Source: Candidatus Peribacter sp.
Lineage (GTDB): Bacteria > Patescibacteriota > Gracilibacteria > Peribacterales > Peribacteraceae
Assembly (NCBI GenBank): GCA_030647195.1
Contig: JAUSKD010000010.1
Span: 197 to 64,196 of the forward strand
Direction of reading: 5' to 3'
Length of the DNA stretch: 64,000 nt
Made by a program: the position numbers and the translations under genes. Within the stretch, counting starts at the first letter, position 1. Each line of letters begins with the position of its first letter. The notes below the pieces were generated by a model, which saw only the letters and a list, made by a program, of their open reading frames with translations, ran no database searches and was not told the DNA's origin. Below are positions 9,624 through 58,891 of this stretch, one piece after another.

Positions 9624-9690
9624 GATGAAACAGGAACGAAATATTACATCGGATACTATCCTTCTCTCATCCATGCGCAACGTTGCAGTT

Positions 9691-23000: not shown

Positions 23001-26000
23001 CCCCAAACCGTGAATCGCGGCGATACGGTGAGCTACACCGTGACCGTGACGAACATCGGAACGGCTACGGCCCTCAACGTCGTTGTGGCGGACGTGATTC
23101 CGGCAGGACTCACCTTCCACGGAGGCCTTTCCTCGACCGACTGTCTGCTCAACGGAGCCGGCACGAGCGTGCTCTGCAATAACTTCTCGCTCGCTGCAGG
23201 TCAGACGAAGACCTTCACCATTACCTTCAATGTCCCCACCACCACGGTCACCTGCGGTTCGACGATTCGCAATACCGCGACCGTCTCGACCAGTAACGAC
23301 CAGAACGGTTCCAATAATACGAGCCAGACGGTGAGCACCTCGGTGCAGTGTCCGGTGCAGAGCGCCGACCTTGGCATTAGTAAAACGTCCAATGTGTCTT
23401 CCGTGCTGTCCGGTGATCCGGTCACGTACACGCTGAACGTCACGAACAGCGGACCGCAATCCGCTGCAAACGTTGTCATCAGTGACTCCCTGCCTGCCGG
23501 AGTGTCCTTCGATGTCCTCTTCCTGCAGACAAACGGTTTCTCCTGCTATCGCCAGTCGAGCGACGCGAATCATCTGGTCTGCGTGCGACCTGCGATGGCA
23601 GTCGGCGAAACGGTGACCATCCGCTATCAGGTGCGCGTCCTCAATCAGGGAACCTGCACGCCACGCTCGCTCACCAATACGGCCGGCGTGACGGCTCTCT
23701 CGGGTACGGATCCGAACGCGGGCAATAACTACGCCCAGGCCACGGTGCAAATGACCTGTCCGAACCTTCAGTCAGACCTCTCGATTCAGAAATCAGTCAG
23801 TCCGTCCTCCGTCCTCCCGGGCCAGCCCCTGACGTACACGCTCTTCGTGCAGAACTTCGGGCCGGGCACCGCGCAGAATGTCATCGTGTCCGATTCGTTG
23901 CCTTCAGGACTTCCCATTACCGTCCAATTCCTGCAGTCCGACGGCTTCAGCTGCTGGAGACAGAATAGTGATCCGAATCACCTGGTCTGCACGCGTTCAT
24001 CCATGCCTGCAGGTGCAACCGCCACGATCCGCTTCACGGCGACCGTGAGCGGCAATAGCTGTACCCCACAAACCGTTCTCAATACGGCTGCCGTGAACGC
24101 ACTGAACAGCACAGATCCGAACGCAGGGAACAACGCCACACAAGTTACGGCCCAGCTGACGTGCCAGAACCCGGTCTTCACGATCTCGAAGACGGACAAT
24201 CGCGACACGACACACCCGGGCGATATCCTTACCTACAGCATTACGGTGACGAATACCTCTGACGTGAACGGCACGAACGTGACCGTGACCGACCTGCTCC
24301 CCGGCTCTGTGACCTTCCTCACCGCATCGGATTTCGGTTGGTCCTCCGGCGGCAGTGTCACCTGGCAGAATCTCTCGATCCCCGCGCATACGACGAAGAC
24401 GCTGACGGTGACCGTGCAGGTGCAGTACGGCACAGCGAACGGAACCGTGCTCACGAACAATGCGACAGTGGCGGGAATCACCGCGCAGGACCAGACAACG
24501 GTTCAGAGCGTCACCACCGCTGATCTCTCGATCATGAAGACCGGTCCGCAGCTTGCCCAGCGCGGTTCCACCATCTTCTACACCATCACGGTATTCAACG
24601 CCGGCCCCGGCTCTTCGCAGAATGCGACGGTGACCGACGTAGTACCGGGCGGCCTCGTCTTCCTGCCACAGCAGTCCACACCCCAGTGCGCGCTGAACGG
24701 CGGAACAGTGACCTGCAGCGGTATTTCACTCGCAGCCGGTCAGAGCCAGAGCCTGACGCTCGCCTTCGAAATCCCCTCCTCTGTCACCTGCGGCACGTTC
24801 CTGCTCAACGCGGCCGAAGTGCACGGCATCAATGATCCGAACTGCGTGAACGACCTGAGCCAGACCGTGACCACAGCGGTGCAATGCCTCAGCCCGACTT
24901 TCACGATGAGCAAGACGGACGGCCACACGACCGCGCAACCCGGCGACACGCTGACGTACACGGTCTCGGTGACGAACACCTCTACGGTGAACGCAACGAA
25001 CATCACGGTGACGGATACCCTGCCCTCCCTCGTCACGTTCCAGAGCGCCTCTGACGGCGGAACGCAGGCGGCAGGCGTGCTGACATGGTCCGGCCTCAGT
25101 ATTGCAGCCGGTGCGACCAAGCAGCTCACGGTGCAGGTGCAGGTGAGTCAGGCGGCCACAAACGGGGCGATCATCACGAACTATGCAAGTGTCGCGGGTG
25201 TCCTTGCGCAGGATTCCACGACCGTACAGGTGCCCCAGACCAATGCGGATGTCTCTGTGATGAAGACCGGCCCGCAGACGGCCCAGCAGGGCAGCATTGC
25301 GCTCTTCGCGGTCACCGTCTTCAATGCGGGACCGTCCGCAGCGACGAACGTCGTCATCGGTGACGTGATCCCGTCGGGATTCACCTTCAATCAGGCGCAG
25401 ACCTCGTCGGGATGCGTGCTGAACGGTGCCGGAACATCGGTGCTGTGCAACAACTTCTCGCTGACCAACGGACAGAGCCGCAGCTTCACGATTGCATTCA
25501 ATGTGACGCAGAACGCCACCTGCAACGGTGTCGTGCAGAATACGGCCACCGTTTCGACCAGCAATGACACGAATCCGGCAAACAATGTCAGCCAGCCGGT
25601 TTCCACCACGGTGCAATGCCCCTCCCCCACCTTCACGATCACGAAGACCGACAACCAGACGACCGTGCAGCCGGGCGGTGTGCTCACCTACGTGGTTTCG
25701 GTGACCAACACCTCGCAGATCGCCGCAACGAACGTCACAGTGACGGATACGCTCCCCTCCCTCGTCACGTTCCAGAGCGCCTCTGACGGCGGAACGCAGG
25801 CGGCGGGCGTGGTGACGTGGTCCGGCCTCAGTATTGCAGCCGGTGCGACCAAGACGCTGACGGTGCAGGTGCAGGTCAGCTCTGCGGCCAGCAACGGAAC
25901 GGTCCTCACCAATAACGCAGCCGTGTCGGGCGTGCTGACATCGGATACGACGACCGTGCAGACCCAGACTCCCACTTTCACTATCAGCAAGACTGATAAT

Positions 26001-28016
26001 CAGACCGTCGTGCTACCCGGTGCGACCCTGTCGTATACCATTTCCGTAACGAACACCTCTGCGGTGAACGCGACGAACGTGACGGTGACGGATGCACTGC
26101 CCGGACTCGTCACATTCCTGAGTGCCTCTGATGGGGGTACACAGGCGAGTGGCGTGGTGACGTGGAATGGCCTCAGCATTGCAGCCGGTGCGACGAAGGT
26201 ACTGACCGTCCAGGCGCAGGTGAGCTCATCTGCCACGAATGGCACTGTCCTGACCAACACGGCAACCGTTGCCGGTGTCTCGGCTCAGGATACGACCACC
26301 GTGCAAACGGGCGCGACCGGAGCGGATCTCTCTATCACCAAAACAGGGCCGAGTACCGTCCAGCAGGGCGGCGTGGTGCTGTACAACGTGACGGTCAGTA
26401 ACGCGGGACCGTCCGCAGCGACGAACGTCGTCATAGCGGATGTGCTACCCTCTGGCCTCACCTTCAATCAGGCTCAGACCTCCTCGGGATGCGTGCTGAA
26501 CGGCGGCGGCACATCGGTGCTGTGTAATAATTTCTCGCTTGCAGCCGGCCAAAATCGCAGCTTCACGATCGCGTTCACCGTGACGCAGACCGCAGCGTGC
26601 AACGCCTCGATCCAGAATACGGCAACGGTCTCGACCAGCAACGATCAAAACGGCCTCAACAACACCAGCCAAACCGTGAACACGACTGTGCTGTGCCCTG
26701 AAGCCACGTACACGATCAGCAAGACCGACAACCGCACGACGGTGCTGCCGGGTGAATCATTGACCTACCAGATCACTCTCACGAACACGTCGTCCTTTAC
26801 AGCGACGAACATCCAGGTCACGGACGCGCTGCCTTCGGGCGTCACGTACGTCACGTCTTCTGACGGGGGTACATTGAACGGCGCCACCGTACGCTGGACG
26901 CTCGGTAGTCTCGCCGCAGGCGCGAGCAGGACGCTCATCGTGATTGTCACCGTGCCCTCTACGGCTTCGAATGGAACCGTGCTGACGAATATCGCATTGG
27001 TCGGTGCAGCCACCGCTCAGGATGTGACCACGGTGAATACCGGCAGTTCGAGTTCCAGTTCCAGCACCAGCAGTTCCAGCAGTAGCAGCTCGAGCGAATG
27101 CAACCTGACGGTGACGCTGCGAGATTCCCAGGATCCCGTCGACTCGGATGAGTCCTTCACCTACACCATCGAAGTCCGCAACAACAACTCTACGACGGTG
27201 AATAACGTCGCACTCACGCAGACCCTGGATAGCAACGTCGACTTCCTCTCGACGACGGGAGGCGGCAACGATGACGCCGGCAACACGATCCGCTGGACCG
27301 GCCTCTCTATCGGCGGCAACTCCACCTCGACATTCACGACATCCGTGCGCGTGCGCGGCGACCGGGACGGCGCGACGATTCGCTCTAACGCCTTCGCCTG
27401 CAGTGCGCAGGATAGCGAGAACACCCAGGTGAGCGGCAACGATATTCCCCCTCCGCCTCCCCCTCCGCCCAACGGAGCCACGCTCACTGTTGATAAGCAG
27501 GCGGATCGCACGGAAGCCCAGGCCGGCAGCATCATCGCCTACACCATATCCGTGCGAAACCAGAGTAACGTCGCCGTGGGTCCCGTCACGATAGAAGACA
27601 CCTTCTCCGCAAGCGACATGACCGTGGAGTACGCCGATGGCGGCTCCGTAAACGGAGGCTCGATCCGGTGGGATCTGGGAACGCTGGGCGCCAACGCCAC
27701 GCGCCTGATCCACTACCGTGTGCGCCTGAGCCAGAGTCTGCAGCATGGCCAGACCGTCAGCAATACCGTGCAGGTGCTGGGCGGCAACGCCACCGATACC
27801 GCACAGGTGCAGATCATCCGCTACTTCCCCCAGACGGGTCTGCTCACCCGCTTCACACAGCTGGGAACAGATAAAGCGGCCTTCCTGCAACCGGTGAGCC
27901 CGAAGAAACGTAATGCGACGGATGCCAGCATCCCTGCCCTCACATGGATGATCCTCCTCTCGACCGGTCTCACGGGCGGTGGACTGCTCGGCAGAAAATT
28001 CCTCATTGGCTTCTAA
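17013..28016 (+). CDS. giant (3,667 aa) modular surface protein: acidic Cys-bounded Ca/metal-binding-like repeats plus DUF11-type repeats
   Basis: Single uninterrupted 11,004-nt ORF with signal-like N-terminus MAKIENAKKPFAIFVLSLLLLSQPGVSALWA. By my count it has 24 copies of C-x-[DN]-G-x-D-[ND]-D-x-D-G-x-x-D-[YF]-P-x-D-x-x-C (thrombospondin type-3 / MopE-like). It has 4 copies of ICPxxTxTSxCxCxTNADCTxPxTCQSGxCRP and 17 DUF11-like repeats (TxTNxGP..NVVVxDxIPxGLTF). It also has poly-Ser and P8 linkers, then FPQTG followed by a C-terminal TM and GRK. Confidence 0.9.
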   Translation: MAKIENAKKPFAIFVLSLLLLSQPGVSALWAQTAVIAQETGAASSEAESSSAASNPQTPSVSDMRAMTSAMASTTAGGGNFTWQILCGEPGTNRSIACDDACRPCISDTYFFWRKFDLQKIGFYYTDGSGHRQLLPPFSTGGNICRDGVSAINGGGTVPTGITPQGLYTEWNAYGHVYTLYSDTHAAIVCPRGGDRTDYYWDDQGNPGTHNDGHVIINYTPAPSSQCSDGIDNDGDGAADFPNDYSCSTTTDNDETNPRSQCQDGVDNDGNGYTDYPSDAGCSSQQDNTESGGQQQYQCNDGIDNDGDGAADYPNDFSCSSATDNDETNPRSQCQDGVDNDGDGVTDGLDPGCSGNQDNDERNICPVGTSTSTCRCATNADCTAPNTCQSGYCRPVSSQCSDGIDNDGDGATDYPADFSCSSATDTDETNPRAQCQDGSDNDHDGLSDYPNDPGCNSAQDNDETNVGTPSCTQPVSASVSFNSFNAPWNYGTSCAQPPVAVATNLHAGDVVRLTGTTGGVCGREYPRAGSCVSDTSGSIFGDCDDEGTQMYSCTDNTYSKAGFYDASHNLIAEHNISAFNASVTVPAGATALYVYFKEYNQTYYYDNNGGFRCNLNFSITGNCPAQCNDGLDNDGDGAADYPNDFSCSSATDTDETNPKAQCQDGIDNDGDGRIDANDLGCTDFQDNDEFNASSSSSSSSSVPGTAQCNDGIDNDGDGKIDALVELSPSNGQSRVWYADMVGIRTFYNQIAAQRGLQQISTDWNGQGMVSNDATTADKICELAGFNNVVSRNCFEYGTTGRCNFTSCSNNTMGVWGGSNMNIVNACGYTWLASLTCRDRLAACSDGIDNDGDGRIDMADTGCATVNDNSEIMHDPDCTGPTDNTESSITQCNDGIDNDGDGAADYPNDFSCTSPTDTDETNPKSQCQDGIDNDGDGLSDYPSDPGCSSRQDNDERNICPAATQTSNCRCATNADCTNPDTCQSGICRPVSYQCNDGIDNDQDGATDFPNDFSCTTATDNDETNPKAQCQDGVDNDGDGRVDYPNDLGCSSRQDNTEAGEAQCQDGIDNDGDGAADYPNDFSCTTPTDTDETNPKAQCQDGIDNDGDGLTDYPNDPGCSSRQDNDEHNICPVATQTSTCRCATNADCTNPDTCQSGICRPVTYQCNDGIDNDGDGATDYPADFSCSGPTDNDETNPKAQCQDGIDNDGDGRVDYQNDPGCSSRQDNNEGDEPQCQNGIDDDQDGATDYPADFSCSGPTDNDETNPRAQCQDGIDNDGDSLVDYPADPGCSTRQDNDEHNICPVATQTSTCHCSTNADCTVPDTCQSGICRPQGADLSVSKTGPTTVVAGTIVSYTVTATNAGPATATNVVIADVIPSGLTFNAGQSTAGCVLNGNGTSVLCNNFSLTAGQSRTFTIVFNVPSTQACGGNAVIQNVATVSSSSQDPNTANNTSQTVTTGVSCPTPQADLSIQKSGPSSVLRGDAVTYTITATNAGPSTATNVVVTDVIPSGLTFNAAGSSASCILNGAGTSVLCNNFNLNAGESRTFSLVFTASSSMSCGATIRNTADVSSSSVDPVSANNHSNEVSTSVTCPQADVMIVKSGPQSVNRGGNILYTVTVTNLGPQRSDNVVVVDRPESMAGLTFSASQSDTDCVLNGTEVLCNNISLQAGQSRTYNIVFTVSPTFTCGSTVANRANANVSTPDPHGDNNWSDRIVTTINCTQCNDGIDNDQDGATDYPADYSCSDANDNDETLPRAQCQDGVDNDGDQLVDYPNDPGCSNNQDNDESNIVLNPDASIQKSGPTTVIRGNTVSYTLTATNVGSATAQNVVVSDSIPSGLTFQAGASSPECVLNGGGTSVLCNNFSLAVGQTRTFTVTFTVTTAVACGATIQNTATVSTSNDVNTANNSSQWNTAVQCVTPQCSDGIDNDGDGATDYPNDYSCASPTDDDESNPRAQCQDGIDNDQDGAIDYPADIGCTSAQDNDESNPATPDLSITKTGPQTVNRGDTVSYTVTVTNIGTATALNVVVADVIPAGLTFHGGLSSTDCLLNGAGTSVLCNNFSLAAGQTKTFTITFNVPTTTVTCGSTIRNTATVSTSNDQNGSNNTSQTVSTSVQCPVQSADLGISKTSNVSSVLSGDPVTYTLNVTNSGPQSAANVVISDSLPAGVSFDVLFLQTNGFSCYRQSSDANHLVCVRPAMAVGETVTIRYQVRVLNQGTCTPRSLTNTAGVTALSGTDPNAGNNYAQATVQMTCPNLQSDLSIQKSVSPSSVLPGQPLTYTLFVQNFGPGTAQNVIVSDSLPSGLPITVQFLQSDGFSCWRQNSDPNHLVCTRSSMPAGATATIRFTATVSGNSCTPQTVLNTAAVNALNSTDPNAGNNATQVTAQLTCQNPVFTISKTDNRDTTHPGDILTYSITVTNTSDVNGTNVTVTDLLPGSVTFLTASDFGWSSGGSVTWQNLSIPAHTTKTLTVTVQVQYGTANGTVLTNNATVAGITAQDQTTVQSVTTADLSIMKTGPQLAQRGSTIFYTITVFNAGPGSSQNATVTDVVPGGLVFLPQQSTPQCALNGGTVTCSGISLAAGQSQSLTLAFEIPSSVTCGTFLLNAAEVHGINDPNCVNDLSQTVTTAVQCLSPTFTMSKTDGHTTAQPGDTLTYTVSVTNTSTVNATNITVTDTLPSLVTFQSASDGGTQAAGVLTWSGLSIAAGATKQLTVQVQVSQAATNGAIITNYASVAGVLAQDSTTVQVPQTNADVSVMKTGPQTAQQGSIALFAVTVFNAGPSAATNVVIGDVIPSGFTFNQAQTSSGCVLNGAGTSVLCNNFSLTNGQSRSFTIAFNVTQNATCNGVVQNTATVSTSNDTNPANNVSQPVSTTVQCPSPTFTITKTDNQTTVQPGGVLTYVVSVTNTSQIAATNVTVTDTLPSLVTFQSASDGGTQAAGVVTWSGLSIAAGATKTLTVQVQVSSAASNGTVLTNNAAVSGVLTSDTTTVQTQTPTFTISKTDNQTVVLPGATLSYTISVTNTSAVNATNVTVTDALPGLVTFLSASDGGTQASGVVTWNGLSIAAGATKVLTVQAQVSSSATNGTVLTNTATVAGVSAQDTTTVQTGATGADLSITKTGPSTVQQGGVVLYNVTVSNAGPSAATNVVIADVLPSGLTFNQAQTSSGCVLNGGGTSVLCNNFSLAAGQNRSFTIAFTVTQTAACNASIQNTATVSTSNDQNGLNNTSQTVNTTVLCPEATYTISKTDNRTTVLPGESLTYQITLTNTSSFTATNIQVTDALPSGVTYVTSSDGGTLNGATVRWTLGSLAAGASRTLIVIVTVPSTASNGTVLTNIALVGAATAQDVTTVNTGSSSSSSSTSSSSSSSSSECNLTVTLRDSQDPVDSDESFTYTIEVRNNNSTTVNNVALTQTLDSNVDFLSTTGGGNDDAGNTIRWTGLSIGGNSTSTFTTSVRVRGDRDGATIRSNAFACSAQDSENTQVSGNDIPPPPPPPPNGATLTVDKQADRTEAQAGSIIAYTISVRNQSNVAVGPVTIEDTFSASDMTVEYADGGSVNGGSIRWDLGTLGANATRLIHYRVRLSQSLQHGQTVSNTVQVLGGNATDTAQVQIIRYFPQTGLLTRFTQLGTDKAAFLQPVSPKKRNATDASIPALTWMILLSTGLTGGGLLGRKFLIGF

Positions 28017-33422: not shown

Positions 33423-34214
33423 CTACCGAGACACATCATCCAACACCGCCTGCATGTACTGGAGCGTATTCAGTCCCTCGACGATGCGCATCGCATTGGT
33501 TTCGCGATTCAGGAAGATGAAGGAAGGCGCAACGTAGATCTGCGAATCCGTTTCTGCTGCGGCTTTGTCATCGATCACGAGATCATAGAGCTCTTTCTGC
33601 TCGATACAGGTCTGGAGTTTTGCCGTGTCTGCACCGACCGTCGAGGCCGTCGAAAGCAGGATGTTCAACGGAAGGGGGCTTCCGGTTTGCTTCATCAAAA
33701 GGTCAAGATATGCCCAGAAGGCATCATTCCCCAGTTGCGCGGCAACGCACTCCGTCGCCATACCGGACCGGTAGTCATTCTCATTGTTCGAGGCCGGATA
33801 ATGGCGGAAAACCCAGTGGATGCGATCCTTGTTCTTCTCGAAAAACTCATGCATCTTCGGGTGAACGAGTTGTGTGTAGAGACTGGTCAGAGCGGCATAC
33901 TCCACCACGATGATCTTGGTTCCGGGGTCGCCCAGAATATGCTCGTCCGCCTCAATATCCGTCAGAAAAACGTACGGGCTGGGTTCTGCCGGCAGCGGTT
34001 TGTCGCCGGTGTACTGGGCGACATCCTCGAATTTCTCCAGCGTAGGCTGGGCCGCAGGGGCGATCAGGGGCGCGGGTGGCTGTTCCGGGGAAGCGCCATG
34101 AAACGTCGGTTGACCGCCGATGAGCCAGTTCGCAAAAAAGTACCCGCCGATGAGCACGAGCAGACAGAGCGCGACGACAAACCAGACCTTCGTACGATCC
34201 TGTGATTCCATCAT
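33423..34214 (-). CDS. DsbA-family thioredoxin-fold protein lacking the CXXC active site, membrane anchored
   Basis: N-terminal TM segment. The stretch GDPGTKIIVVEYAALTSLYTQLVHPKM...FRHYP...ATECVAAQLGNDAFWAY matches the DsbA/Thioredoxin_4 layout, but the F-x-C-P-x-C position reads A-L-T-S-L-Y. Confidence 0.7.
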   Translation of the reverse strand: MMESQDRTKVWFVVALCLLVLIGGYFFANWLIGGQPTFHGASPEQPPAPLIAPAAQPTLEKFEDVAQYTGDKPLPAEPSPYVFLTDIEADEHILGDPGTKIIVVEYAALTSLYTQLVHPKMHEFFEKNKDRIHWVFRHYPASNNENDYRSGMATECVAAQLGNDAFWAYLDLLMKQTGSPLPLNILLSTASTVGADTAKLQTCIEQKELYDLVIDDKAAAETDSQIYVAPSFIFLNRETNAMRIVEGLNTLQYMQAVLDDVSR

Positions 34215-34401: not shown

Positions 34402-37400
34402 ATGCGAAAACTGCTCGGTCGCATCACCGTTTCGATCGCGCTCGTTATCGTGATGGTTCTCGTCCTGCAACAGAATGTGACGCCGAAAAAGGGGAAATAT
34501 GAGCTTGCAGCAGAGCTGATTGGAGCGAGCATCTGCCCCACGGGAACCCACGACTTTAACTGTAAGTGTGATCGGGCCAAAATCGCGTCCACAGAACAGA
34601 TTTCGGAATCAGAGGCGGGCGGCGTGAGCGTGTATTGCTGCGCGGAAAAAGAACTGGGTTTCCTCACGCGCATGAAGGATACGACCAATCCCACGGATGC
34701 CGATAACGCGTATCAGGAGCTCGTGACTTTTCTGGATGCCTACAACGGAATGAAAGACGAAGGGCCGGACCTGCTGGAAAATTGGTTGCAGAACAACTGC
34801 GATAAGGCCACCTGTGATCAGTGTGACAAATTTATCGATCTCGTTGGCGGAAGCGCCGGGAGCAATCCTTCATCGAATAATAACTCTTCGGACAACAATT
34901 CCTCGGCCAACAACTCTTCGGAGGGCGGAGGCTCTTCTCGGGGAGGCACCTCGTCGAAAGGTGGCGGCAAGTCGAGCGCCGCAGGCGGAAGTTCCAGTGC
35001 AGGGGGGAGCAGCTCGAGTGAGGCCGCATCCAGTTCCAGCGCAGAGGCGAGCTCCAGCAGCGGTCAATCCTCCTCCGGAAAGAATTCCAGCACTTCTGTC
35101 GGCAGCTCGAGCGAAGCGAACAGCTCTTCATCCGGCGACTCCAGTTCCAGCGAAGAAAGCTCCAGCAGCGAAGACTCCTCTTCCTCCGCCTCAGAAGAGA
35201 GTTCGAGCAGCGAAGAATCCTCCTCCTCTGAAGAGAGCTCCAGCAGCGAAGGTTCTTCTTCATCCGAAGGGAGCTCAGAATCCTCCTCTTCCTCCGCGAA
35301 TACGTACTACGTCATCTGCGACAAGCCGGATCCCAAGGGCTACTGCTGCAAAGCCAGTGACAAAACATCGGGGAAAAAATGCGATGCGCTGGGGAGTGCG
35401 GATACCTGCTACGACAAAGGAGCGACTCCTGCGGCTGGTGACAACAAGCCCGGCAACTGGTACCTCGCTCAGCTGAACAAAGAGGAAAAGCAGGGAGTGC
35501 AGAATAAATGTATGAAAGAGGGAGGCGGCACGGGTACCGGCGGTGCTCCCGAAGAGTGCAAGGGGACATGTGGCGACGGACGCGTCGACAAGGAGGGCGA
35601 CGCCCCTGAAGAATGTGATGAAGGAGAGGCCAACACAACCGATCCCAATACAGAAGCAGAATCCATTACCGAATCCGACAAGGCCGTCGAGAGCCGGGAC
35701 GGCACCGTGAATATCCCCAAGGGAATATCCAATGCCCGTGAATCACTGACAGGGCCGATACCCTGGAGCAAGGCCTGGGGGGATCAGTTGAAAAAAAGTA
35801 ATTGCGACGACACATGCAAATTCACCAAATGCGTCGGGGTCAATCCATCGGCCGATACTTCGGCCTGTCTTGCCATTCATACCGGTGACAACAAGGAGCC
35901 GCTCTGTCAGCCGGTCACCCATCAATTCGTGAATGGAATGGGTCCCTACCTCAAGCCGAAAGGAGGCGTGACTGACGGAATGCAGTTGACCCTCGATGAT
36001 GTCGAAACGAATTTCGGCGCGTGTTCCAATCTGCCCGGCCGCAGTACGACCGGAAAGCTGTTCGCTCTCGGCGGCGGGCAGGATGTCGGCAATCCCGCCG
36101 AGATCGACGGAGGAGTGGAGGACGATATTGAATACGCGCAGCAAATCTCCACGACGGACCTGATGGCGACTGTACTGGTTGCCGGAAAATTACTGGCACT
36201 GGATCCCGCCAATAAGTGCGATGACGGGGCGGGCAATAATGTGCCTCCGGAGGATACGGATGTGGCTGAGGGGGCAGATTGTGGAAGATACTGCTGGGTA
36301 GAGAAAGAAGGAGGAGCTCGATGCACCTTCGGAGGAGAATGTCCGAGTGGTACTTGTTACTACTTTGATGTGAATGGCAGAAAAAAACATTGTCGTGGAA
36401 GAGCGGACGGAGTGGACCTGCTCCCCGACAATAATTGTCGTGCCGATAATGGTTTTTGCGCCTCACTCGTCACCTATCACAACATGGCCACGTGCGGCTC
36501 GCGCGAAGACGCCACTGGCGGAATGATGTGGTGCATTAATCACAGCTGCAAGAAACTGGCAGTGAAGGAGCGCCGACGTTCCGACCGGCAGGACAATACT
36601 CCGGCTCCGCCTCCGGGACAGGGTGGCATGCCTCCCGGCGGCGGTGGAGGCGGAGGCGGGTATCCGAGAGGATCTTCAGGAGGCTCCACTGGAGGTGGCT
36701 CGACCGGGAGTACAGGCAGTGGCGGCAGTGGCGGCAGTGGCGGCAGCCCCGGCCCCGGAAGCAGCCGCGGGAGCAGCGTTGCCTCGAGCAGGCCCAGCAG
36801 TGCTGGTTCTAGCGGGAGTGGTGGGAGCAGCAAAGCTTCTTCCAAGTCTTCTTCCAAGAGTAGTAGTAGCAGCAAGAGCGGAAGCAATGATTCAGGTGGC
36901 GGCGTAGGGAGCAAATCTTCATCTAAATCGTCGTCCAAATCTTCTTTAAAGAGCAGCAGCTCAAGCGGCCCGAGCAGCGCAAGCACTGGAAGCGATGATG
37001 GTGGTGGAAACAGCAGAAGGAGCAGTAACGGGAGTCAGGGCTCCGGGGGCAGTGGCGGCAGTGATGGTTCAGGAGGAAGCAGTGGAAGGAGCAGCAATGC
37101 AAGTAATAGCTCTGGAGTCAGTGGCGGCAGTGCCACCAGCAGTCGCAGCAGCAGTATGCAGGACTGCTGTCGTTATTCCGCTCCGACAATCAACGGAGAG
37201 ACCGGCGAGGTGTTCTGCCGTGACGGCACCCTGCAGCCGGATGGCCGGTGCCGCAACTGCGCGGGCTGCTACAGCAGTAGTAGCAGTAGTAAGAGCAGCA
37301 GCGTTGCCGAGTGTTGTAAGTACCAAAGCCCCATTTACAATGCAGAAACGGGGGTCTGGTATTGCCAGAAGGGAGAGCTGCAGGAAGATGGCCGATGCCG

Positions 37401-40032
37401 CGACTGCGGAGGCTGCTACAGCAGCACTTCCTCGGGCAGGTCCTCCTCCGGAGGAAGCGGCGGCTCTGACAGCAGCGGAGGTGGAGGAAGCAGTAGGAGT
37501 TCTTCGTGCGGTTCCCAGTGCTCCCGCAGCTCCGCCTCTTCGCGGTCCGCGAGCTGCGGCAACGGACGGATCGATCTGGGTGAAGACTGTGACAACGGAG
37601 GGATGTGCAAGAACGGCCCGAAGCAGTTCCAGACCTGCTTCTCCAATGCAGATTGCTTCAATGCACAGGGGCAATGCGTGAATGGCTGGTGCAGTGACGG
37701 CCTCCCCTGCTTCGGCGACTGGGATTGCGTGGATTTGTTCCAGTGCGTCTACAACACCTTGTCTGACCCGTCCTGCACCGCACAGTGCAAGCAAACGAGT
37801 TCGCGTTCCTCCTCTTCATCCAGCAATGACTCATCCGGGAGTGGCGCTTCGGGCTCCCGCACCAGTGCGAGTGCTTCCAGTGCCACCTCCGGCCAAAGCT
37901 CCCAATCCAGCAAGAGTGCGAGCATTCAGGAGTGCTGCAAGTATGCCAATCCTATTTTCAATGCACAGACCGGAGAGTGGTTCTGTCAGAAAGGCGAACT
38001 GCTGAACGGAGTCTGCCGTGACTGCTCCTCCTGCTTCAGCAGCAGCAGTTGCTCCCGCAGCTCAAGCATGCAGGATTGCTGCAGATACACCAATTCCGTG
38101 ATCAACGGTGAAACGGGGCAGATCTTCTGTCCTGATGGAGAGTTGCAGCCGGATGGTCGCTGCCGCAACTGCAGTGCCTGCTATAGCAGCTCTTCCCGCT
38201 CGTCCTCCCGTTCCTCCTCGGCCAGCCACTCCCGCGCCTGCGGCAACGGGCTGATCGAGATCGGAGAGGATTGCGACAACGGCAGCATCTGCGGAGCCGG
38301 TGAAGTGGCCGGTCGCCGCTGTGCAAACAACAGCGGCTGTTCCGTCTATCGCGGACCCTGCACAGGAGGGGTCTGCAGCCTGAAAACAGCCGTGTCCTGC
38401 GGGGGTGACGGGGATTGCGTCGAGGAGTACCCGTGCGTCTTCGACACTGCCTCGGATCTCACCTGCTCTGCGCAGTGCAAGCGCACCTCGAGCTCGTCAC
38501 GGTCCTCCAGCTCAAGCTCCAGCTCCCGTTCCTCCTCGTCATCCTCGGGATACGGTTACAGCAGCACGCCCCCGCCCTTCTGCGGGAATGGCGTTGTCAA
38601 TTCCGGTGAGCAGTGTGACGACGGAAACCTGAGTGAAGGCGACGGATGCGACCGGCTCTGCCGCATTGAGGTACCGCACATCTGTGGAAATGGGAGAGTG
38701 GAAGCACCCGAAGAATGTGACGACGGAAACCGGCAGGCGGGTGACGGCTGTTCTCCTTCCTGCATCCGGGAACAGGTTAATGCTCTCTGCGGTAACGGCA
38801 TTATCGAATCGCCCGAAGAGTGCGACGATCGCAACCTGCAGGATGGCGACGGATGCAGCAGAAGCTGCAGCATTGAGCGTCCCTGGGGGAGCAGCTCCAG
38901 CATCTTCATTCCGGGGACATTCGTCTGCGGCAATAACATTCTCGAGCCCGGTGAGGAGTGTGACGACGGAAACCAGATGATCGGCGACGGATGCAATGCC
39001 TCGTGTCGCAAGGAAGCGATTCATGGGCAGCCGGTCTGCGGCAACGGCGTGAAGGAAACCTACGAGCAGTGCGACGATGGCAACCGGCAGGCGGGCGACG
39101 GCTGCGATGCAAGCTGCCGCATCGAATCCACCATCATCACCGGCACGAAAGACTGCGGCAACAGCAAACTGGAGCCCGGCGAAGAGTGTGATGACGGCAA
39201 CCGCCGCGATTTCGACGGCTGCTCCGCAACCTGCTTCCTCGAGAAGGGTTCCTGCGGCGATGGCATCATTCAGCAAGCCCTCGGCGAACAGTGCGAGCCC
39301 TCTCTTCCGCGTCCCCCCGGGACGTCCGTGCCGTACGGGTGCGGCCAGAATTGCCGGTACACGCTGAACTTCTGCGGCAACGGTCTTTTGGATCCGGGCG
39401 AGCAGTGTGACGCCGGCAGCAGGCTGAACAGTAACCAGCCCGATTCGCTCTGCCGCTTAGACTGTTCCCTCCCCCGTTGCGGAGACAGGATCGCCGACAG
39501 CGGAGAGCAGTGCGATGATGGCAATGCCAAGAGCGGCGACGGCTGTGACCGGTTCTGCCTGCGCGAAGGAGGTGCGCCGACAAGCAGTATCTGCGGCAAC
39601 GGACGTCTGGAGATCGGCGAGGAGTGTGATGACGGCAACCGCATCATCGGTGACGGCTGCAATAGTTCCTGCCGTAAGGAGCCCGCGTGCGAGCCGGCGA
39701 ATATGATCTGCGGAGACGGCATCCGGGGCTGTCTGGAGGCATGCGATGACGGAAACCGAGTGAGCGGGGACGGTTGCTCGGCAGATTGCCGCATTGAAGG
39801 GCCTGCGACGATGATTGCAGCAAGCAGCAGCCCGCAGGGACAGCAACAAGGAACCTCGTCCGCCGGTGGAACGTTCAGTAAAGGCCCTGCGTTCGCCACC
39901 CTCCGCGCGTACACGCTCGCAACCTCGCGCACTCAATCCATTCCGGGACAAACCGGCCCTGCCGCGGTTGCGGTCATGGCCGCCGGCGCCGCCGCAGGAT
40001 TCTCCTGGATGCGTCGACGTCGGAGTCGGTGA
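34402..40032 (+). CDS. large (about 1,876 aa) Ser-rich, Cys-repeat envelope protein with C-terminal sorting-like signal
   Basis: Signal-anchor MRKLLGRITVSIALVIVMVLVL (ATG 34402; the track's TTG 34336 is less likely). It has a Ser/Gly/Glu low-complexity region of about 150 aa and 4 copies of a 6-Cys CC[KR]Y module. It also has about 11 CGNGxxExGEECDDGNxxxGDGCxxxC (TIGR02232-type) repeats. The tail reads IPGQTGPAAVAVMAAGAAAGFSWMRRRRSR. Confidence 0.85.
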   Translation: MRKLLGRITVSIALVIVMVLVLQQNVTPKKGKYELAAELIGASICPTGTHDFNCKCDRAKIASTEQISESEAGGVSVYCCAEKELGFLTRMKDTTNPTDADNAYQELVTFLDAYNGMKDEGPDLLENWLQNNCDKATCDQCDKFIDLVGGSAGSNPSSNNNSSDNNSSANNSSEGGGSSRGGTSSKGGGKSSAAGGSSSAGGSSSSEAASSSSAEASSSSGQSSSGKNSSTSVGSSSEANSSSSGDSSSSEESSSSEDSSSSASEESSSSEESSSSEESSSSEGSSSSEGSSESSSSSANTYYVICDKPDPKGYCCKASDKTSGKKCDALGSADTCYDKGATPAAGDNKPGNWYLAQLNKEEKQGVQNKCMKEGGGTGTGGAPEECKGTCGDGRVDKEGDAPEECDEGEANTTDPNTEAESITESDKAVESRDGTVNIPKGISNARESLTGPIPWSKAWGDQLKKSNCDDTCKFTKCVGVNPSADTSACLAIHTGDNKEPLCQPVTHQFVNGMGPYLKPKGGVTDGMQLTLDDVETNFGACSNLPGRSTTGKLFALGGGQDVGNPAEIDGGVEDDIEYAQQISTTDLMATVLVAGKLLALDPANKCDDGAGNNVPPEDTDVAEGADCGRYCWVEKEGGARCTFGGECPSGTCYYFDVNGRKKHCRGRADGVDLLPDNNCRADNGFCASLVTYHNMATCGSREDATGGMMWCINHSCKKLAVKERRRSDRQDNTPAPPPGQGGMPPGGGGGGGGYPRGSSGGSTGGGSTGSTGSGGSGGSGGSPGPGSSRGSSVASSRPSSAGSSGSGGSSKASSKSSSKSSSSSKSGSNDSGGGVGSKSSSKSSSKSSLKSSSSSGPSSASTGSDDGGGNSRRSSNGSQGSGGSGGSDGSGGSSGRSSNASNSSGVSGGSATSSRSSSMQDCCRYSAPTINGETGEVFCRDGTLQPDGRCRNCAGCYSSSSSSKSSSVAECCKYQSPIYNAETGVWYCQKGELQEDGRCRDCGGCYSSTSSGRSSSGGSGGSDSSGGGGSSRSSSCGSQCSRSSASSRSASCGNGRIDLGEDCDNGGMCKNGPKQFQTCFSNADCFNAQGQCVNGWCSDGLPCFGDWDCVDLFQCVYNTLSDPSCTAQCKQTSSRSSSSSSNDSSGSGASGSRTSASASSATSGQSSQSSKSASIQECCKYANPIFNAQTGEWFCQKGELLNGVCRDCSSCFSSSSCSRSSSMQDCCRYTNSVINGETGQIFCPDGELQPDGRCRNCSACYSSSSRSSSRSSSASHSRACGNGLIEIGEDCDNGSICGAGEVAGRRCANNSGCSVYRGPCTGGVCSLKTAVSCGGDGDCVEEYPCVFDTASDLTCSAQCKRTSSSSRSSSSSSSSRSSSSSSGYGYSSTPPPFCGNGVVNSGEQCDDGNLSEGDGCDRLCRIEVPHICGNGRVEAPEECDDGNRQAGDGCSPSCIREQVNALCGNGIIESPEECDDRNLQDGDGCSRSCSIERPWGSSSSIFIPGTFVCGNNILEPGEECDDGNQMIGDGCNASCRKEAIHGQPVCGNGVKETYEQCDDGNRQAGDGCDASCRIESTIITGTKDCGNSKLEPGEECDDGNRRDFDGCSATCFLEKGSCGDGIIQQALGEQCEPSLPRPPGTSVPYGCGQNCRYTLNFCGNGLLDPGEQCDAGSRLNSNQPDSLCRLDCSLPRCGDRIADSGEQCDDGNAKSGDGCDRFCLREGGAPTSSICGNGRLEIGEECDDGNRIIGDGCNSSCRKEPACEPANMICGDGIRGCLEACDDGNRVSGDGCSADCRIEGPATMIAASSSPQGQQQGTSSAGGTFSKGPAFATLRAYTLATSRTQSIPGQTGPAAVAVMAAGAAAGFSWMRRRRSR

Positions 40033-40063: not shown

Positions 40064-42400
40064 ATGACGACCCAAACGATCCTCCGGCGCTTTCTCCTCC
40101 CGACGATTCTGCTGGGGGCCGTCGTCGCCGTGCTCTCGTGGGAGCCATCGCATGTGTCACCCGGTTGGAAGGCTCAAGTGACGACCAGCTCGTCCTCCGC
40201 AGTCTGCGGCAATGGTGTACGCGATGGTACTGAAGAATGTGATTGTTACGGTGAGCAAAACCAATGGACCTGTAACAGTACGACACGATACTGCGATTGC
40301 CCTTCGCCCATCGGCAATGGAACCTGCACGTGTGTGAATGTTTCGTCGAGCTCCTCCTCCGCGGCATCCGTAGATTGTGCTCCGTGTACGAATGGCGGAT
40401 GTCAGACGTGCGCCGCCAACGCTCAGGATCCCCTGTGCGGAATTCCTCTGGCCAATGGTGGTACCTATGAATGTTTGGCAGCTCCCAATGCCAATTATAC
40501 GGTCTGTACCTGTCCGGCAGCCTCTTCTGCGACATCGTCCTCGCCATCAACCCAGAGTTCCGCAGCCAGTCAGGCATCTTCCGCTGCAGCAACTTCGCAG
40601 TCTTCCTCGGCTGTTGTATCTTCCCAGACTTCATCTGCCGCAGTGTCCTCTCAGGCCTCTTCCGTTCTCCCGCCTCAGAGTTCCTTCAGCTCGGCAGGTT
40701 CGGCGCCCAACGGCTCCGTCATCGGGATCGAAGCCGGGCTCTGCGCGCAGGTGAAGGCGGATCCCGTCACCGGCCAGAAGCTGGTGTACTGCTGTCTCGA
40801 TGAGGGTTTCATCTACCAGCGCGAAGCCAGCCAACAGGAATTCGAGCAGTTTGTGTCCCTGCTGAAACGTCTCGAAAGCATGTCGGCCAAAGATGCCAAA
40901 CCCATTTTCGATGTCCCCTATGACGGCAGCATTCACAGGAAGTACGGTTGGACCTCCCTCTGCGGAAAACAGATCCCCTGCGATGTGTGCTCCCAGGATC
41001 ACATCTGCGGCAACGGAGTGGTGGAAGCCACCGAGAAATGCGACGACGGCCCGCGCAATTCCGCCGAGACGCCGGACGTGTGCCGCATTGACTGCACGCT
41101 GCCCAAATGCGGAGACAGCGTGATTGACCGTCAGGCGGGCGAGGAATGCGACGACGGCAGGTTCAACGGCGATCAGCCCAATCGCTGCAGAACAGACTGC
41201 GTCCTTCCCCGGTGCGGCGACGCCATCATCGATTCCCTCAGCGGTGAAACCTGTGATACGGGAAGAGGCAATTCGGATACGCTGGCCAACAGCTGCAGAA
41301 GCAACTGTCAGTCCCCCCGCTGCGGCGACGGAGTGCAAGACTCGCACGAAGATTGCGATGACGGCAATCGGGCAGACAGTGACGGGTGCTCCTTCTACTG
41401 TGAATTGGAAAGAAGACAGACCTCCTCTGCTGCTGTCACCGTCCTCCCGACGCTGCGCTGCGGGAACGGAATCACGGAACCCGGGGAGGAGTGCGACACC
41501 GGTTCGAATAACGCAAACGTCCCCAACAACTGCAGGCAGAATTGCATCCTGCCACGCTGCGGAGACCGCATTCAGGACACCGGCGAGGAGTGCGACGACG
41601 GCAATAACGCAAACGGAGACGGCTGCACTGCCCTCTGTATGCGGGAACTCGTCCTCTCGCTGACAAATGTCTGCGGGAATCAGATCATCGACCCCGGGGA
41701 GGAATGTGATGCCGGCAGCGGTAACGCCAACATTCCCGACCACTGCCGCTTCGACTGTCGCTTCCCCACCTGCGGCGATGGCATCAAGGATACGAACGAA
41801 CAGTGCGACGACCGCAACCACCTGGATGGTGACGGATGTACGAAAGACTGCTTCAGCGAATTCTGCGGCGACGGCTTCAAAGAAATGGGCGAAGAGTGCG
41901 ACGATGGCAACCTGATCAGCGGGGATGGCTGCAGCCGCTTATGTCAAAAAGATACAGGGACGCCCGTTTCCGCCCTCATCATCGAGACGGGTTCCCTGGC
42001 CATGCGCTCTTCCAGGCCGCCGCTTCGCGGCGCAGCCTCCAGCAAGGCGTCGACCGCCGCATCTTCCAAGGTCTCCACAGCACAGCAGAAATCCTCTGCA
42101 CGGATGGTGAATCCGGTCGCCACTGTCTCGTCTTCGTCCTCCGCCTCGAGCGTGTTCTCCGTCACGGGCCAGGCGTTCTCGATAGCCTCATCCGCCCCGC
42201 AAATGGCTTCCACCACCCTGAACGCGCAGGTGATTCCCTTCCCCGCCGCAGCCACCGTTCCCGTATCCGCGTACTACTATCCGCAGCAACCGGTCTTCAC
42301 TACGACCACCCTGAATGACACCGGTCCTGCCGCCTTGAGCATCGTCGCCATGGGGGCGGCCGCGGGCCTCGCGTGGGCAAGACGGAAACGAAGGATGTAA
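40064..42400 (+). CDS. Cys-repeat envelope protein (778 aa) with the same C-terminal sorting-like signal
   Basis: ATG 40064 (MTTQTILRRFLLPTILLGAVVAVL), 31 nt after the previous stop. It has Ser/Ala-rich linkers and about 10 TIGR02232-type repeats. The tail reads LNDTGPAALSIVAMGAAAGLAWARRKRRM. Confidence 0.85.
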   Translation: MTTQTILRRFLLPTILLGAVVAVLSWEPSHVSPGWKAQVTTSSSSAVCGNGVRDGTEECDCYGEQNQWTCNSTTRYCDCPSPIGNGTCTCVNVSSSSSSAASVDCAPCTNGGCQTCAANAQDPLCGIPLANGGTYECLAAPNANYTVCTCPAASSATSSSPSTQSSAASQASSAAATSQSSSAVVSSQTSSAAVSSQASSVLPPQSSFSSAGSAPNGSVIGIEAGLCAQVKADPVTGQKLVYCCLDEGFIYQREASQQEFEQFVSLLKRLESMSAKDAKPIFDVPYDGSIHRKYGWTSLCGKQIPCDVCSQDHICGNGVVEATEKCDDGPRNSAETPDVCRIDCTLPKCGDSVIDRQAGEECDDGRFNGDQPNRCRTDCVLPRCGDAIIDSLSGETCDTGRGNSDTLANSCRSNCQSPRCGDGVQDSHEDCDDGNRADSDGCSFYCELERRQTSSAAVTVLPTLRCGNGITEPGEECDTGSNNANVPNNCRQNCILPRCGDRIQDTGEECDDGNNANGDGCTALCMRELVLSLTNVCGNQIIDPGEECDAGSGNANIPDHCRFDCRFPTCGDGIKDTNEQCDDRNHLDGDGCTKDCFSEFCGDGFKEMGEECDDGNLISGDGCSRLCQKDTGTPVSALIIETGSLAMRSSRPPLRGAASSKASTAASSKVSTAQQKSSARMVNPVATVSSSSSASSVFSVTGQAFSIASSAPQMASTTLNAQVIPFPAAATVPVSAYYYPQQPVFTTTTLNDTGPAALSIVAMGAAAGLAWARRKRRM

Positions 42401-52981: not shown

Positions 52982-53274
52982 AACGCACTCCTTCACACTT
53001 GTTTCCCATCGAACATAGACACCATTCCACCCCCCGGCTACATCCTCCTTTCTTTCTTTGAGAGCCGTTGTTTCGAATGACCGAGTGAACCGCTCACCCG
53101 TTCCAAAATCTCCTTTTATCATCGAAACAGGAGCGGAAAGGTAATCCTATGCTCTAAATCACCGATTTGCAATATTTTACTTAATGTTGTGTGGAGAACA
53201 ACAGGTCATCAAATTCTGAGGGCAATCCACAAATGGAGAGTGAATTTGAAGACATGCTAGAATGAAGGATCACC

Positions 53275-58810: not shown

Positions 58811-58891
58811 GTTTCTAAGTATTCTATCACATTTCGCCCTCCCGCTCACGCCTCAAAAATTGCATAAACATGTAAGATGTTTCCTAATATG

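What the first reader, a model, noticed from the sequence alone, without database searches (positions are those of the whole stretch)
39940..40032. Conserved C-terminal tripartite sorting-like signal shared by two tandem giant proteins
The tail of the 34402 gene is IPGQTGPAAVAVMAAGAAAGFSWMRRRRSR (39940-40029). The tail of the 40064 gene is LNDTGPAALSIVAMGAAAGLAWARRKRRM (42311-42397). Both have a short polar motif ending in TGPAA, then an Ala/Gly-rich hydrophobic helix with GAAAG-x2-W, then an Arg cluster at the extreme C-terminus. This is the architecture of sortase (LPXTG), exosortase (PEP-CTERM) and related protein-sorting signals. LNDTG fits L-x-x-T-G, and the giant protein carries FPQTG (27825-27839), although about 32 aa ahead of its TM. 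No sortase or exosortase gene lies in the window.
Basis: partly seen in the sequence, partly recalled or inferred. Interest (0 to 1): 0.65.

Follow-up and report, generated by a model that had tools for sequence, protein, structure and literature searches.

The report
Peregrinibacteria C-terminal surface-protein sorting tail
Two neighbouring cysteine-rich surface proteins of a Peribacter-like ultra-small bacterium end in the same 30-residue tail, which recurs at the very end of over a hundred large proteins across this phylum and most likely marks them for cell-surface attachment, probably by a sortase.

Summary
Both tails are at the stated coordinates. From the Thr on they share 15 of 26 residues, but only 6 codons; the 60 residues upstream share 8.

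The window comes from a relative of Candidatus Peribacter riflensis (Peregrinibacteria, CPR). A degenerate DNA pattern for the tail, scanned over 185,579 species genomes, gave 123 matches. Of these, 121 lie in frame 24-34 residues before the stop of a large ORF, almost all in Peregrinibacteria. One MAG has 11 such loci.

The consensus is P-[VAIL]-G-x-T-G-P, a fixed-length Ala/Gly-rich helix with GxxxG and Trp, then an Arg/Lys cluster. No tail contains Cys. No NCBIfam sorting-signal model fits specifically.

Carriers are mostly DUF4215 cysteine-rich repeat proteins (54 of 61). Myxococcota homologues carry MYXO-CTERM at the same position.

No sorting enzyme lies in the window. The near-identical complete genome encodes three sortase homologues, one about 13 kb beyond the window's right end by synteny.

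Best reading: a lineage-specific variant of the LPXTG-type signal, cleaved at T|G by a sortase (confidence 0.5). Rivals are an uncleaved GxxxG anchor and an unknown intramembrane enzyme. Gene neighbourhood gives no support for any enzyme. I rate it a new variant of a known kind, of moderate interest.

The parts
34402..40032 (+). Gene for the 1876-aa DUF4215 / myxo_disulf_rpt cysteine-rich, Ser-rich surface protein ('protein 1'). The start may instead be TTG 34336. It is the orthologue of P. riflensis gene _482.
   Evidence: ORF list and translation. TIGR02232 E=1.7e-96 and PF13948 E=2.1e-33. Syntenic orthologues in L001-L006 keep the tail. Table S4 of PMC4736985 lists _482.
34402..34470 (+). 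N-terminal signal peptide or signal anchor of protein 1 (MRKLLGR + ITVSIALVIVMVLVL).
   Evidence: Read from the translation. 50 of 55 untruncated tail-bearing ORFs elsewhere have such a segment. No cleavage-site prediction was made.
39940..40029 (+). Tail 1: IPGQTGPAAVAVMAAGAAAGFSWMRRRRSR (stop at 40030-40032).
39943..39960 (+). Signature motif of tail 1: P-G-Q-T-G-P. The T|G pair at 39952-39957 is the proposed cleavage site.
   Evidence: T, G and P are invariant in 18 homology-collected tails. Logo of 116 tails.
39961..40008 (+). Ala/Gly-rich hydrophobic helix of tail 1 (AAVAVMAAGAAAGFSW), with GxxxG (G+11, G+15) and Trp+18.
   Evidence: mean Kyte-Doolittle 1.55 across 116 tails
40012..40029 (+). 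Basic cluster of tail 1 (RRRRSR).
40064..42400 (+). Gene for the 778-aa DUF4215 protein ('protein 2'), tandem to protein 1.
   Evidence: Orthologues P0001-P0013 keep LNDTGPAALSIVAMGAAAGLAWARRKRR.
40064..40141 (+). N-terminal signal peptide-like segment of protein 2 (MTTQTILRRFLLPTILLGAVVAVLSW).
   Evidence: Read from the translation.
42311..42397 (+). Tail 2: LNDTGPAALSIVAMGAAAGLAWARRKRRM (stop at 42398-42400). Motif LNDTGP 42311-42328, helix 42329-42376, basic cluster 42380-42394.
33423..34214 (-). Context: a DsbA-like thioredoxin gene divergently upstream of protein 1, syntenic in all relatives. It is a plausible oxidative-folding helper for the disulfide-rich passengers.
   Evidence: PF13462 E=3.6e-9. 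Same position in L001-L006.

Best explanation
The tail is a lineage-specific tripartite C-terminal sorting signal of Peregrinibacteria (CPR). Its parts are the motif P-[VAIL]-G-x-T-G-P, a fixed-length Ala/Gly-rich transmembrane helix with GxxxG and Trp, and an Arg/Lys cluster at the extreme C-terminus.

Proposed mechanism:
1. The N-terminal signal sequence exports the cysteine-rich DUF4215 passenger (inferred from sequence).
2. The helix and the basic cluster stop transfer and hold the protein in the membrane, with the motif at the outer face (inferred from the positive-inside rule).
3. A membrane-anchored sortase with conserved His/Cys/Arg (IAGHSS, LITC, R) cleaves between T and G. It then transfers the protein to a peptidoglycan precursor, displaying it on this monoderm-like, peptidoglycan-making cell (inferred by analogy with LPXTG).

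Shown: the signal exists, is under selection, is C-terminal, is multi-copy and is lineage-restricted; sortases are encoded in the same genome. Not shown: cleavage, the enzyme and the acceptor.
For: - Position: the motif is 24-34 residues from the stop in 121 of 123 genome-wide matches, and almost all are in Peregrinibacteria.
- Invariance: in tails collected by homology, not by pattern, T, G, P and Gly+15 are invariant and there are no indels.
- Motif shape: at positions the pattern did not constrain, P-4 is 69%, [VALI]-3 is 78% and G-2 is 75%. That gives [hydrophobic]-x-x-T-G, as in LPXTG or LAXTG.
- Selection: the two window copies differ at synonymous sites while their upstream linkers are unalignable.
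- Haft's criteria for such signals: 1-6 and 8 are met. In particular, 50 of 55 carriers have an N-terminal hydrophobic segment, and Myxococcota DUF4215 homologues carry the experimentally cleaved MYXO-CTERM at the same position (PMC11980579).
- Enzyme present: sortase PF04203 (E=1.9e-17) passes the generic NCBIfam sortase model. Its orthologue P0147 lies on CP013064.1 at 567,684-568,478, on the same replicon as the orthologues of both proteins. The paper's gene table lists three K07284 sortase hits: _264, _350 and _517. The same paper reports full peptidoglycan synthesis.
- Other enzymes absent: neither term 'exosortase' nor 'CAAX' occurs in that genome's annotation table, and the only rhomboid hit is weak, E=0.0011.
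- Weak helix: the low hydrophobicity (mean KD 1.55) suits a transient anchor better than a permanent one for proteins of up to 2,600 aa.
Against: - Pro at position 2 of LPXTG occurs in only 3% of tails; Gly is usual.
- The helix is strongly conserved (GxxxG, Trp, fixed length) and the motif abuts it. That is typical of signals read by polytopic enzymes (PEP-CTERM, GlyGly-CTERM, MYXO-CTERM), not of sortase signals.
- Canonical LPVTG tails exist in the same lineage on DUF11 proteins. Those are the more obvious sortase substrates.
- Sortase genes are not enriched near tail genes. 2 of 116 tail loci contain one, against about 0.8 expected. About 3 of 45 sortase loci carry a tail gene.
- 54 of 61 carriers share one passenger family.
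- The LPXTG_anchor HMM scores only 11-17.4 bits on isolated tails against a cutoff of 15.9. On the two full-length window proteins it did not hit at all.
Confidence: 0.5

Rival explanations
1. The tail is an uncleaved membrane anchor. It is a permanent C-terminal transmembrane helix, and its GxxxG face and Trp mediate dimerisation or docking to a membrane partner. On this view it is a family-specific domain of the expanded DUF4215 paralogue family, not a portable signal.
For: - G+11 and G+15 form a GxxxG motif; together with Trp+18 and the fixed length they are conserved.
- 54 of 61 carriers are DUF4215 proteins, and 1645 of 1830 passenger pairs are similar.
- No enzyme gene is recurrently adjacent.
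- Another DUF4215 protein in the window (56822-58849, minus strand) uses a plain TM plus a cytoplasmic tail.
Against: - An invariant T-G-P and a conserved P-x-G on the outer side of the helix have no role in simple anchoring.
- The helix is short and only marginally hydrophobic (KD 1.55).
- A few carriers have unrelated passengers: L034, L057 and L047.
- Homologues in Myxococcota carry a cleaved sorting signal at the same position.
Confidence: 0.27
2. The tail is a new sorting system with a non-sortase enzyme. An unidentified, probably polytopic intramembrane enzyme recognises TGP plus the GxxxG helix, as exosortase, rhombosortase and myxosortase recognise their signals. It would then cleave or re-anchor the protein, possibly to a lipid.
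For: - The motif directly abuts a sequence-conserved helix, which is the pattern of PEP-CTERM, GlyGly-CTERM and MYXO-CTERM.
- No curated model fits; isolated tails score equally weakly on LPXTG, PEP-CTERM and GC_trans_RRR.
- Canonical LPXTG tails coexist in the lineage and could be the sortases' true substrates.
Against: - No candidate enzyme was seen. The recurrent neighbours are housekeeping genes (TPM, LemA, FtsH, adenylosuccinate lyase, RpoC, LCP).
- There is no exosortase, CPBP or convincing rhomboid in the P. riflensis annotation.
- The invariant T-G is the scissile pair of sortases.
Confidence: 0.2
3. The tail is a member of an already defined signal family, either PEP-CTERM/exosortase (as NCBI names one fragment) or MYXO-CTERM/GC_trans_RRR.
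For: - P0129 is named 'PEP-CTERM sorting domain-containing protein'.
- Some isolated tails reach 16.4-17.7 bits on PEP_CTERM (cutoff 16) and 16.0-16.7 bits on GC_trans_RRR (cutoff 15.85).
Against: - There is no P-E-P motif.
- No Cys occurs in any of 116 tails.
- The same tails score equally on mutually exclusive models, so these hits reflect the shared architecture only.
- No exosortase is annotated in the genome.
Confidence: 0.03

Closest known systems
LPXTG cell-wall sorting signal and sortase (TIGR01167; variants LAXTG for class E and NPXTG in Ruminococcus, NF033846)
   Same: Both have a tripartite layout: an invariant T-G preceded by a hydrophobic residue at -3, then a hydrophobic segment, then a basic C-terminus. 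Both occur on large N-terminally signalled surface proteins. Sortase genes are present in the genome, and the host makes peptidoglycan.
   Different: Gly, not Pro or Ala, is usual at position 2. There is an extra conserved Pro at -4 and an invariant Pro right after T-G. The helix is sequence-conserved (GxxxG, Trp) and of fixed length. Carriers are nearly restricted to one passenger family. The sortase fits no defined class: class D and class C models give 45-51 bits against cutoffs of 140-165. The best solved relative is 4d70, E=3.6e-7.
MYXO-CTERM / GC_trans_RRR and myxosortase (TIGR03901, TIGR03382)
   Same: It sits on the same passenger family (DUF4215 / TIGR02232 repeats), at the same position and with the same tripartite design. 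Homologues P0078 and P0086 are named MYXO-CTERM proteins.
   Different: MYXO-CTERM needs an invariant Cys and a CPBP-family protease, and it works in diderm cells. The Peregrinibacteria tails have no Cys (0 of 116), and no CPBP protease was found.
PEP-CTERM/exosortase and GlyGly-CTERM/rhombosortase
   Same: The signature motif directly abuts a conserved helix, which is followed by an Arg cluster. Each genome holds many copies.
   Different: There is no PEP or GlyGly motif, no exosortase or rhombosortase was detected, and the host lacks an outer membrane.
GVDTG_CTERM (NF058571)
   Same: It is the best-scoring NCBIfam model for tail 1, and both contain a D-T-G-like core.
   Different: The score is 16.8 bits against a cutoff of 29. 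The typical motif here is P-V-G-D-T-G-P. I found no literature on that model.

Membership tests
Generic tripartite C-terminal sorting signal (Haft criteria, bioRxiv 10.1101/2023.06.07.544157) | 1. [quoted passage not shown] | tested here: met
   T-to-stop distance is 24-34 aa in 121 of 123 matches, most often 25-26.
Generic tripartite C-terminal sorting signal (Haft criteria) | 2. [quoted passage not shown] | tested here: met
   11 loci in MAG JABIBA01 and 3-4 in several others. In the window's own genome only the 2 copies could be seen.
Generic tripartite C-terminal sorting signal (Haft criteria) | 3. [quoted passage not shown] | tested here: met
   T, G and P are invariant in 18 homology-collected tails. 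P-4 is 69% and G-2 is 75%.
Generic tripartite C-terminal sorting signal (Haft criteria) | 4-5. Hydrophobic helix, then a basic cluster | tested here: met
   16-residue Ala/Gly-rich segment with mean KD 1.55. R/K is 84-100% at each of +20 to +24 (R+K = 99, 98, 99, 86 and 82-84% by position).
Generic tripartite C-terminal sorting signal (Haft criteria) | 6. N-terminal signal peptide in most carriers | tested here: met
   50 of 55 untruncated ORFs have an N-terminal hydrophobic 14-mer. This is a heuristic, not SignalP.
Generic tripartite C-terminal sorting signal (Haft criteria) | 7. Numerous carrier pairs with no similarity outside the signal | tested here: inconclusive
   Only 185 of 1830 pairs lack passenger similarity, and 54 of 61 carry DUF4215. 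The search pattern was narrow and may miss other carriers.
Generic tripartite C-terminal sorting signal (Haft criteria) | 8. Homologues elsewhere lack the signal or carry a different one | tested here: met
   Myxococcota homologues carry MYXO-CTERM. A window paralogue, 56822-58849 on the minus strand, has a different C-terminus.
LPXTG/sortase signal | Canonical L-P-x-T-G pentapeptide (Pro at position 2) | tested here: not met
   Position -2 is G 75%, S 6%, N 6% and P 3%. The T-G pair and a hydrophobic -3 residue are kept.
LPXTG/sortase signal | Score above the TIGR01167 cutoff | tested here: inconclusive
   Isolated tails score 11-17.4 bits against 15.9. There is no hit on the full-length window proteins, and scores on rival models are equal.
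LPXTG/sortase signal | Sortase encoded in the same genome | tested here: met
   P0147 lies on CP013064.1 together with the orthologues of both proteins. The gene table lists three K07284 hits. This was not seen inside the window.
LPXTG/sortase signal | Cleavage between T and G and linkage to peptidoglycan | not testable with these tools
   Needs proteomics or enzymology.
MYXO-CTERM / GC_trans_RRR | [quoted passage not shown] | tested here: not met
   0 of 116 unique tails contain Cys in the last 35 aa.
PEP-CTERM / exosortase | P-E-P motif and an exosortase gene | tested here: not met
   No PEP motif in any tail. The term 'exosortase' does not occur in the P. riflensis gene table, and none is in the window.

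The most novel reading that the evidence does not exclude
The 'PxGxTGP' tail is a distinct, so far unmodelled protein-sorting system of CPR Peregrinibacteria, and its processing enzyme is not a classical wall-anchoring sortase. One option is an unknown polytopic intramembrane enzyme that reads the GxxxG helix. Another is the phylum-wide conserved sortase-Lgt gene pair acting together to re-anchor the cysteine-rich adhesins to a membrane lipid. Either would be the main surface-display route of these episymbiont-like cells.
Probability: 0.2. Interest if true: 0.75.

Novelty: new variant of a known kind. Interest (0 to 1): 0.5.

Why it matters
CPR bacteria are thought to live attached to other cells, yet how they display their huge, fast-evolving surface proteins is unknown. 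This tail marks a whole set of cysteine-rich candidate adhesins in Peregrinibacteria. It gives a simple sequence handle for listing them in any genome.

Annotation pipelines label it inconsistently. NCBI names one tail fragment PEP-CTERM. Isolated tails also scrape over the LPXTG_anchor and GC_trans_RRR cutoffs, so other labels are possible. A dedicated model would fix that.

It also gives a concrete test: does one of the three unclassified Peribacter sortases cleave P-V-G-D-T|G-P? A positive result would extend sortase specificity to a Gly-at-position-2 motif in an uncultured phylum. A negative result would point to a new sorting enzyme.

Tried and rejected
- Exact look-ups of protein 2 and of the ATP synthase gamma subunit in public assemblies found nothing. 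NusG did match and identified the source lineage.
- A profile of 18 tails searched against 5.8 billion proteins returned only 10 short fragments. Long carriers, including those used to build the profile, were lost, probably to HMMER's composition filter. For that reason I ran no further search on the tail.
- A regex search for TLxTC sortase motifs gave 78 false leads. All six that I checked had no Pfam hit.
- Neighbourhood clustering of 116 tail loci found no recurrent enzyme. The top clusters are syntenic housekeeping genes.
- Sortase-centred loci from metagenomes (68 loci) showed tail genes next to the sortase in only a few cases, namely L126 and L185, plus L021 from the genome scan. That is not above chance.
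- PEP-CTERM, MYXO-CTERM, GlyGly-CTERM and GVDTG_CTERM membership were rejected, on missing defining residues or sub-threshold scores.
- Recent gene conversion between the two tandem genes was rejected by the synonymous differences.
- Literature searches for Peregrinibacteria with LPXTG, CPR with sortase and sorting signal, GVDTG, and DUF4215 found nothing relevant.
Full report
**Observation**

Translating the stated coordinates gives exactly the two tails:
- IPGQTGPAAVAVMAAGAAAGFSWMRRRRSR (39940-40029)
- LNDTGPAALSIVAMGAAAGLAWARRKRRM (42311-42397)

They end two tandem genes: 34402-40032 (1876 aa) and 40064-42400 (778 aa). Both proteins start with a hydrophobic signal-like segment. Both are built from Ser-rich low-complexity stretches and many copies of the cysteine-rich acidic repeat: TIGR02232 at E=1.7e-96 and 1.7e-44, and Pfam DUF4215.

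From the Thr on, 15 of 26 residues are identical. Only 6 codons are identical, 9 identical residues use synonymous codons, and nucleotide identity is 58%. The 60 residues upstream share 8 of 60. The similarity is therefore kept at the peptide level and is not a recent gene conversion.

A degenerate DNA pattern for the tail matches the window twice and never in 100 shuffles. No other ORF in the window carries such a tail.

**Source organism**

The window's NusG is identical to that of Candidatus Peribacter riflensis CP013064.1 (Peregrinibacteria, CPR). The same gene order is found there: giant protein, Pth, signal peptidase, SecE, NusG, MurJ, DsbA-like thioredoxin, a 1751-aa protein and a 694-aa protein. 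The orthologues of protein 1 keep the tail IPGQTGPAAVAVMAAGAAAGFSWMRRRRKR.

The gene table of Anantharaman et al. 2016 (PMC4736985) uses the same coordinates (NusG at 521,057-521,602). It lists the protein 1 orthologue as gene _482, one of 20 cysteine-rich, mostly exported large proteins.

**How widespread the tail is**

A homology search with protein 2 found three groups:
- Orthologues (P0001-P0013) with the same tail.
- More distant DUF4215 proteins of Peregrinibacteria with variant tails.
- Myxococcota DUF4215 proteins that end instead in Cys-containing MYXO-CTERM tails.

Eighteen tails collected in this way align without a single gap. T, G, P and a Gly 15 residues after the Thr are invariant.

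I then scanned one genome from each of 185,579 species with degenerate DNA for TGPA-x7-GAA[AG]G-xx-W-x-[basic-like codons]x3. This gave 123 matches in 116 loci.
- 121 matches lie in frame 24-34 residues before the stop of a large ORF.
- The two that do not are in a Promineofilum MAG and a Pseudomonadota MAG, and look like chance.
- Nearly all the rest are Peribacteria or Peregrinibacteria MAGs. A few are labelled Gracilibacteria, Absconditabacterales, Patescibacteria or unnamed 'bacterium', and two carry probably mis-binned labels (Dehalococcoidia, Planctomycetaceae).
- One MAG (JABIBA01) has 11 loci and several others have 3-4. Some are tandem arrays.

**Anatomy**

Across 116 unique tails, the positions that the pattern did not constrain give this consensus:
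- Position -4: P, 69%
- Position -3: V/A/L/I, 78%
- Position -2: G, 75%
- Position -1: D/Q/K/E
- Then T-G-P-A-A-V-A-V-M-A-A-G-A-A-A-G-[WLFY]-[ASG]-W-[MVI]-R-R-[KR]-R-[KR]

No tail contains Cys. The helix is only marginally hydrophobic (mean Kyte-Doolittle 1.55) and contains a GxxxG motif. 50 of 55 untruncated carriers have an N-terminal hydrophobic segment.

54 of 61 sampled carriers contain DUF4215. Only L034, L057 and L047 have largely unrelated passengers, and 185 of 1830 passenger pairs lack similarity.

**Comparison with known signals**

Against NCBIfam release 20 (June 2026), no sorting-signal model fits specifically. Scores for isolated tails, with the cutoff after the slash:

| Model | Score / cutoff (bits) |
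|---|---|
| GVDTG_CTERM | 16.8 / 29 |
| Rumino_NPXTG | 17.6 / 23.5 |
| LPXTG_anchor | 11-17.4 / 15.9 |
| PEP_CTERM | 13-17.7 / 16 |
| GC_trans_RRR | 11-16.7 / 15.85 |

The full-length window proteins hit none of these. Equal weak scores on mutually exclusive models reflect the shared tripartite layout only. NCBI has named one tail fragment 'PEP-CTERM'.

Judged by Haft's eight criteria for such signals, 1-6 and 8 are met. Criterion 7, unrelated carriers, is only weakly met.

**The enzyme question**

No sortase, exosortase, rhomboid or CPBP protease lies in the window.

One tail locus, L021, contains a 257-aa sortase (PF04203, E=1.9e-17). It passes the generic NCBIfam sortase model but none of the class models. 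Its best solved relative is 4d70, at E=3.6e-7. All named homologues are from Peribacteria or Peregrinibacteria.

The P. riflensis orthologue, P0147 (gene _517), lies at 567,684-568,478 of CP013064.1. That is 46.6 kb from NusG, or about 13 kb beyond the window's right end by synteny with L127, which shows ROK, transaldolase and the 23S-IVP gene 8-10 kb from the sortase. The gene table lists two more K07284 sortase hits, _264 and _350.

In L021 and L126, a tail-bearing DUF4215 gene sits directly beside the sortase-Lgt pair. This adjacency is not above chance:
- 2 of 116 tail loci contain the sortase, against about 0.8 expected.
- About 3 of 45 longer sortase loci carry a tail gene.
- The recurrent neighbours of tail genes are housekeeping genes.

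Canonical LPVTG tails also exist in the lineage, on DUF11 proteins.

**Interpretation**

The feature is a real, selected, C-terminal, multi-copy and lineage-restricted sorting-type domain.

The invariant T-G preceded by a hydrophobic residue, the presence of sortases and peptidoglycan, the absence of other known sorting enzymes, and the replacement of MYXO-CTERM at the same position in homologues all favour a sortase-dependent variant of the LPXTG signal (0.5).

The sequence-conserved GxxxG helix abutting the motif, the near-restriction to one passenger family and the lack of neighbourhood support keep two rivals alive:
- an uncleaved anchor with a helix-packing function (0.27)
- an unidentified intramembrane enzyme (0.2)

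Membership in PEP-CTERM or MYXO-CTERM is rejected because the defining residues are absent.

**Verdict**

This is a new variant of a known kind, of moderate interest (0.5).

Noticed in passing
window 56822-58849 (-): A third DUF4215 protein (675 aa, PF13948 E=1.3e-65) ends in a different conserved C-terminus: a TM helix followed by a cytoplasmic tail, ...DDIPLDELEMPWHKWK. P0044 from another assembly ends almost identically (DDIPLDQIEMPWHKW). This looks like a second, uncharacterised anchor type for the same passenger family.
   Followed up: partly
L123-L195 (sortase loci); CP013064.1 566,757-568,478: The Peregrinibacteria sortase is followed on the same strand by an Lgt (PF01790) gene in most of the ~50 longer sortase loci (about 41 of 52). 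The Lgt is directly adjacent in roughly a dozen Peribacter-like loci and 1-4 kb downstream in most others. P. riflensis has several Lgt copies. The meaning of a conserved sortase-Lgt pair is unknown.
   Followed up: partly
window 17013-28016 (+), FPQTG at 27825-27839; L126:802-2007 (-); L131:451-1677 (-): The 3667-aa protein combines DUF11 repeats, acidic double-disulfide repeats and isopeptide (RrgB-like) domains. Its FPQTG plus about 32 aa plus TM ending is conserved in P. riflensis. Smaller DUF11/CLIPPER proteins in related MAGs end in a textbook LPVTG-TM-basic signal. So at least two sortase-like signal types coexist in this lineage.
   Followed up: partly
window 33423-34214 (-): A DsbA-like thioredoxin gene lies divergently upstream of protein 1 in every syntenic relative (L001-L006). 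It is a plausible disulfide-forming helper for the cysteine-rich proteins.
   Followed up: no
P0129; isolated tails: NCBI annotation names a tail fragment 'PEP-CTERM sorting domain-containing protein'. Isolated tails scrape over the permissive cutoffs of LPXTG_anchor, PEP_CTERM and GC_trans_RRR alike, so public annotations of these proteins are likely to be inconsistent.
   Followed up: yes
JAQVMB010000012.1 (L090, L100, L122); CAYGDT010000002.1 (L107, L037, L089): Tandem arrays of three or more tail-bearing paralogues lie on consecutive 8-kb blocks, some with identical tails. This fits rapid local expansion of the family.
   Followed up: no
window 5946-9680 (-) and 51485-53122 (-): A 1244-aa protein has a single DUF4215 repeat and no C-terminal anchor. 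A 545-aa RTX (HemolysinCabind) repeat protein is also present. These are further secreted or surface candidates in the same window.
   Followed up: no
one search hits P0027, P0037, P0048, P0085, P0100: Eukaryotic transcriptome proteins (EukProt) combine DUF4215 repeats with a PF00194 domain. The only paper that mentions DUF4215 concerns diatom adhesive-trail proteins acquired from bacteria.
   Followed up: no
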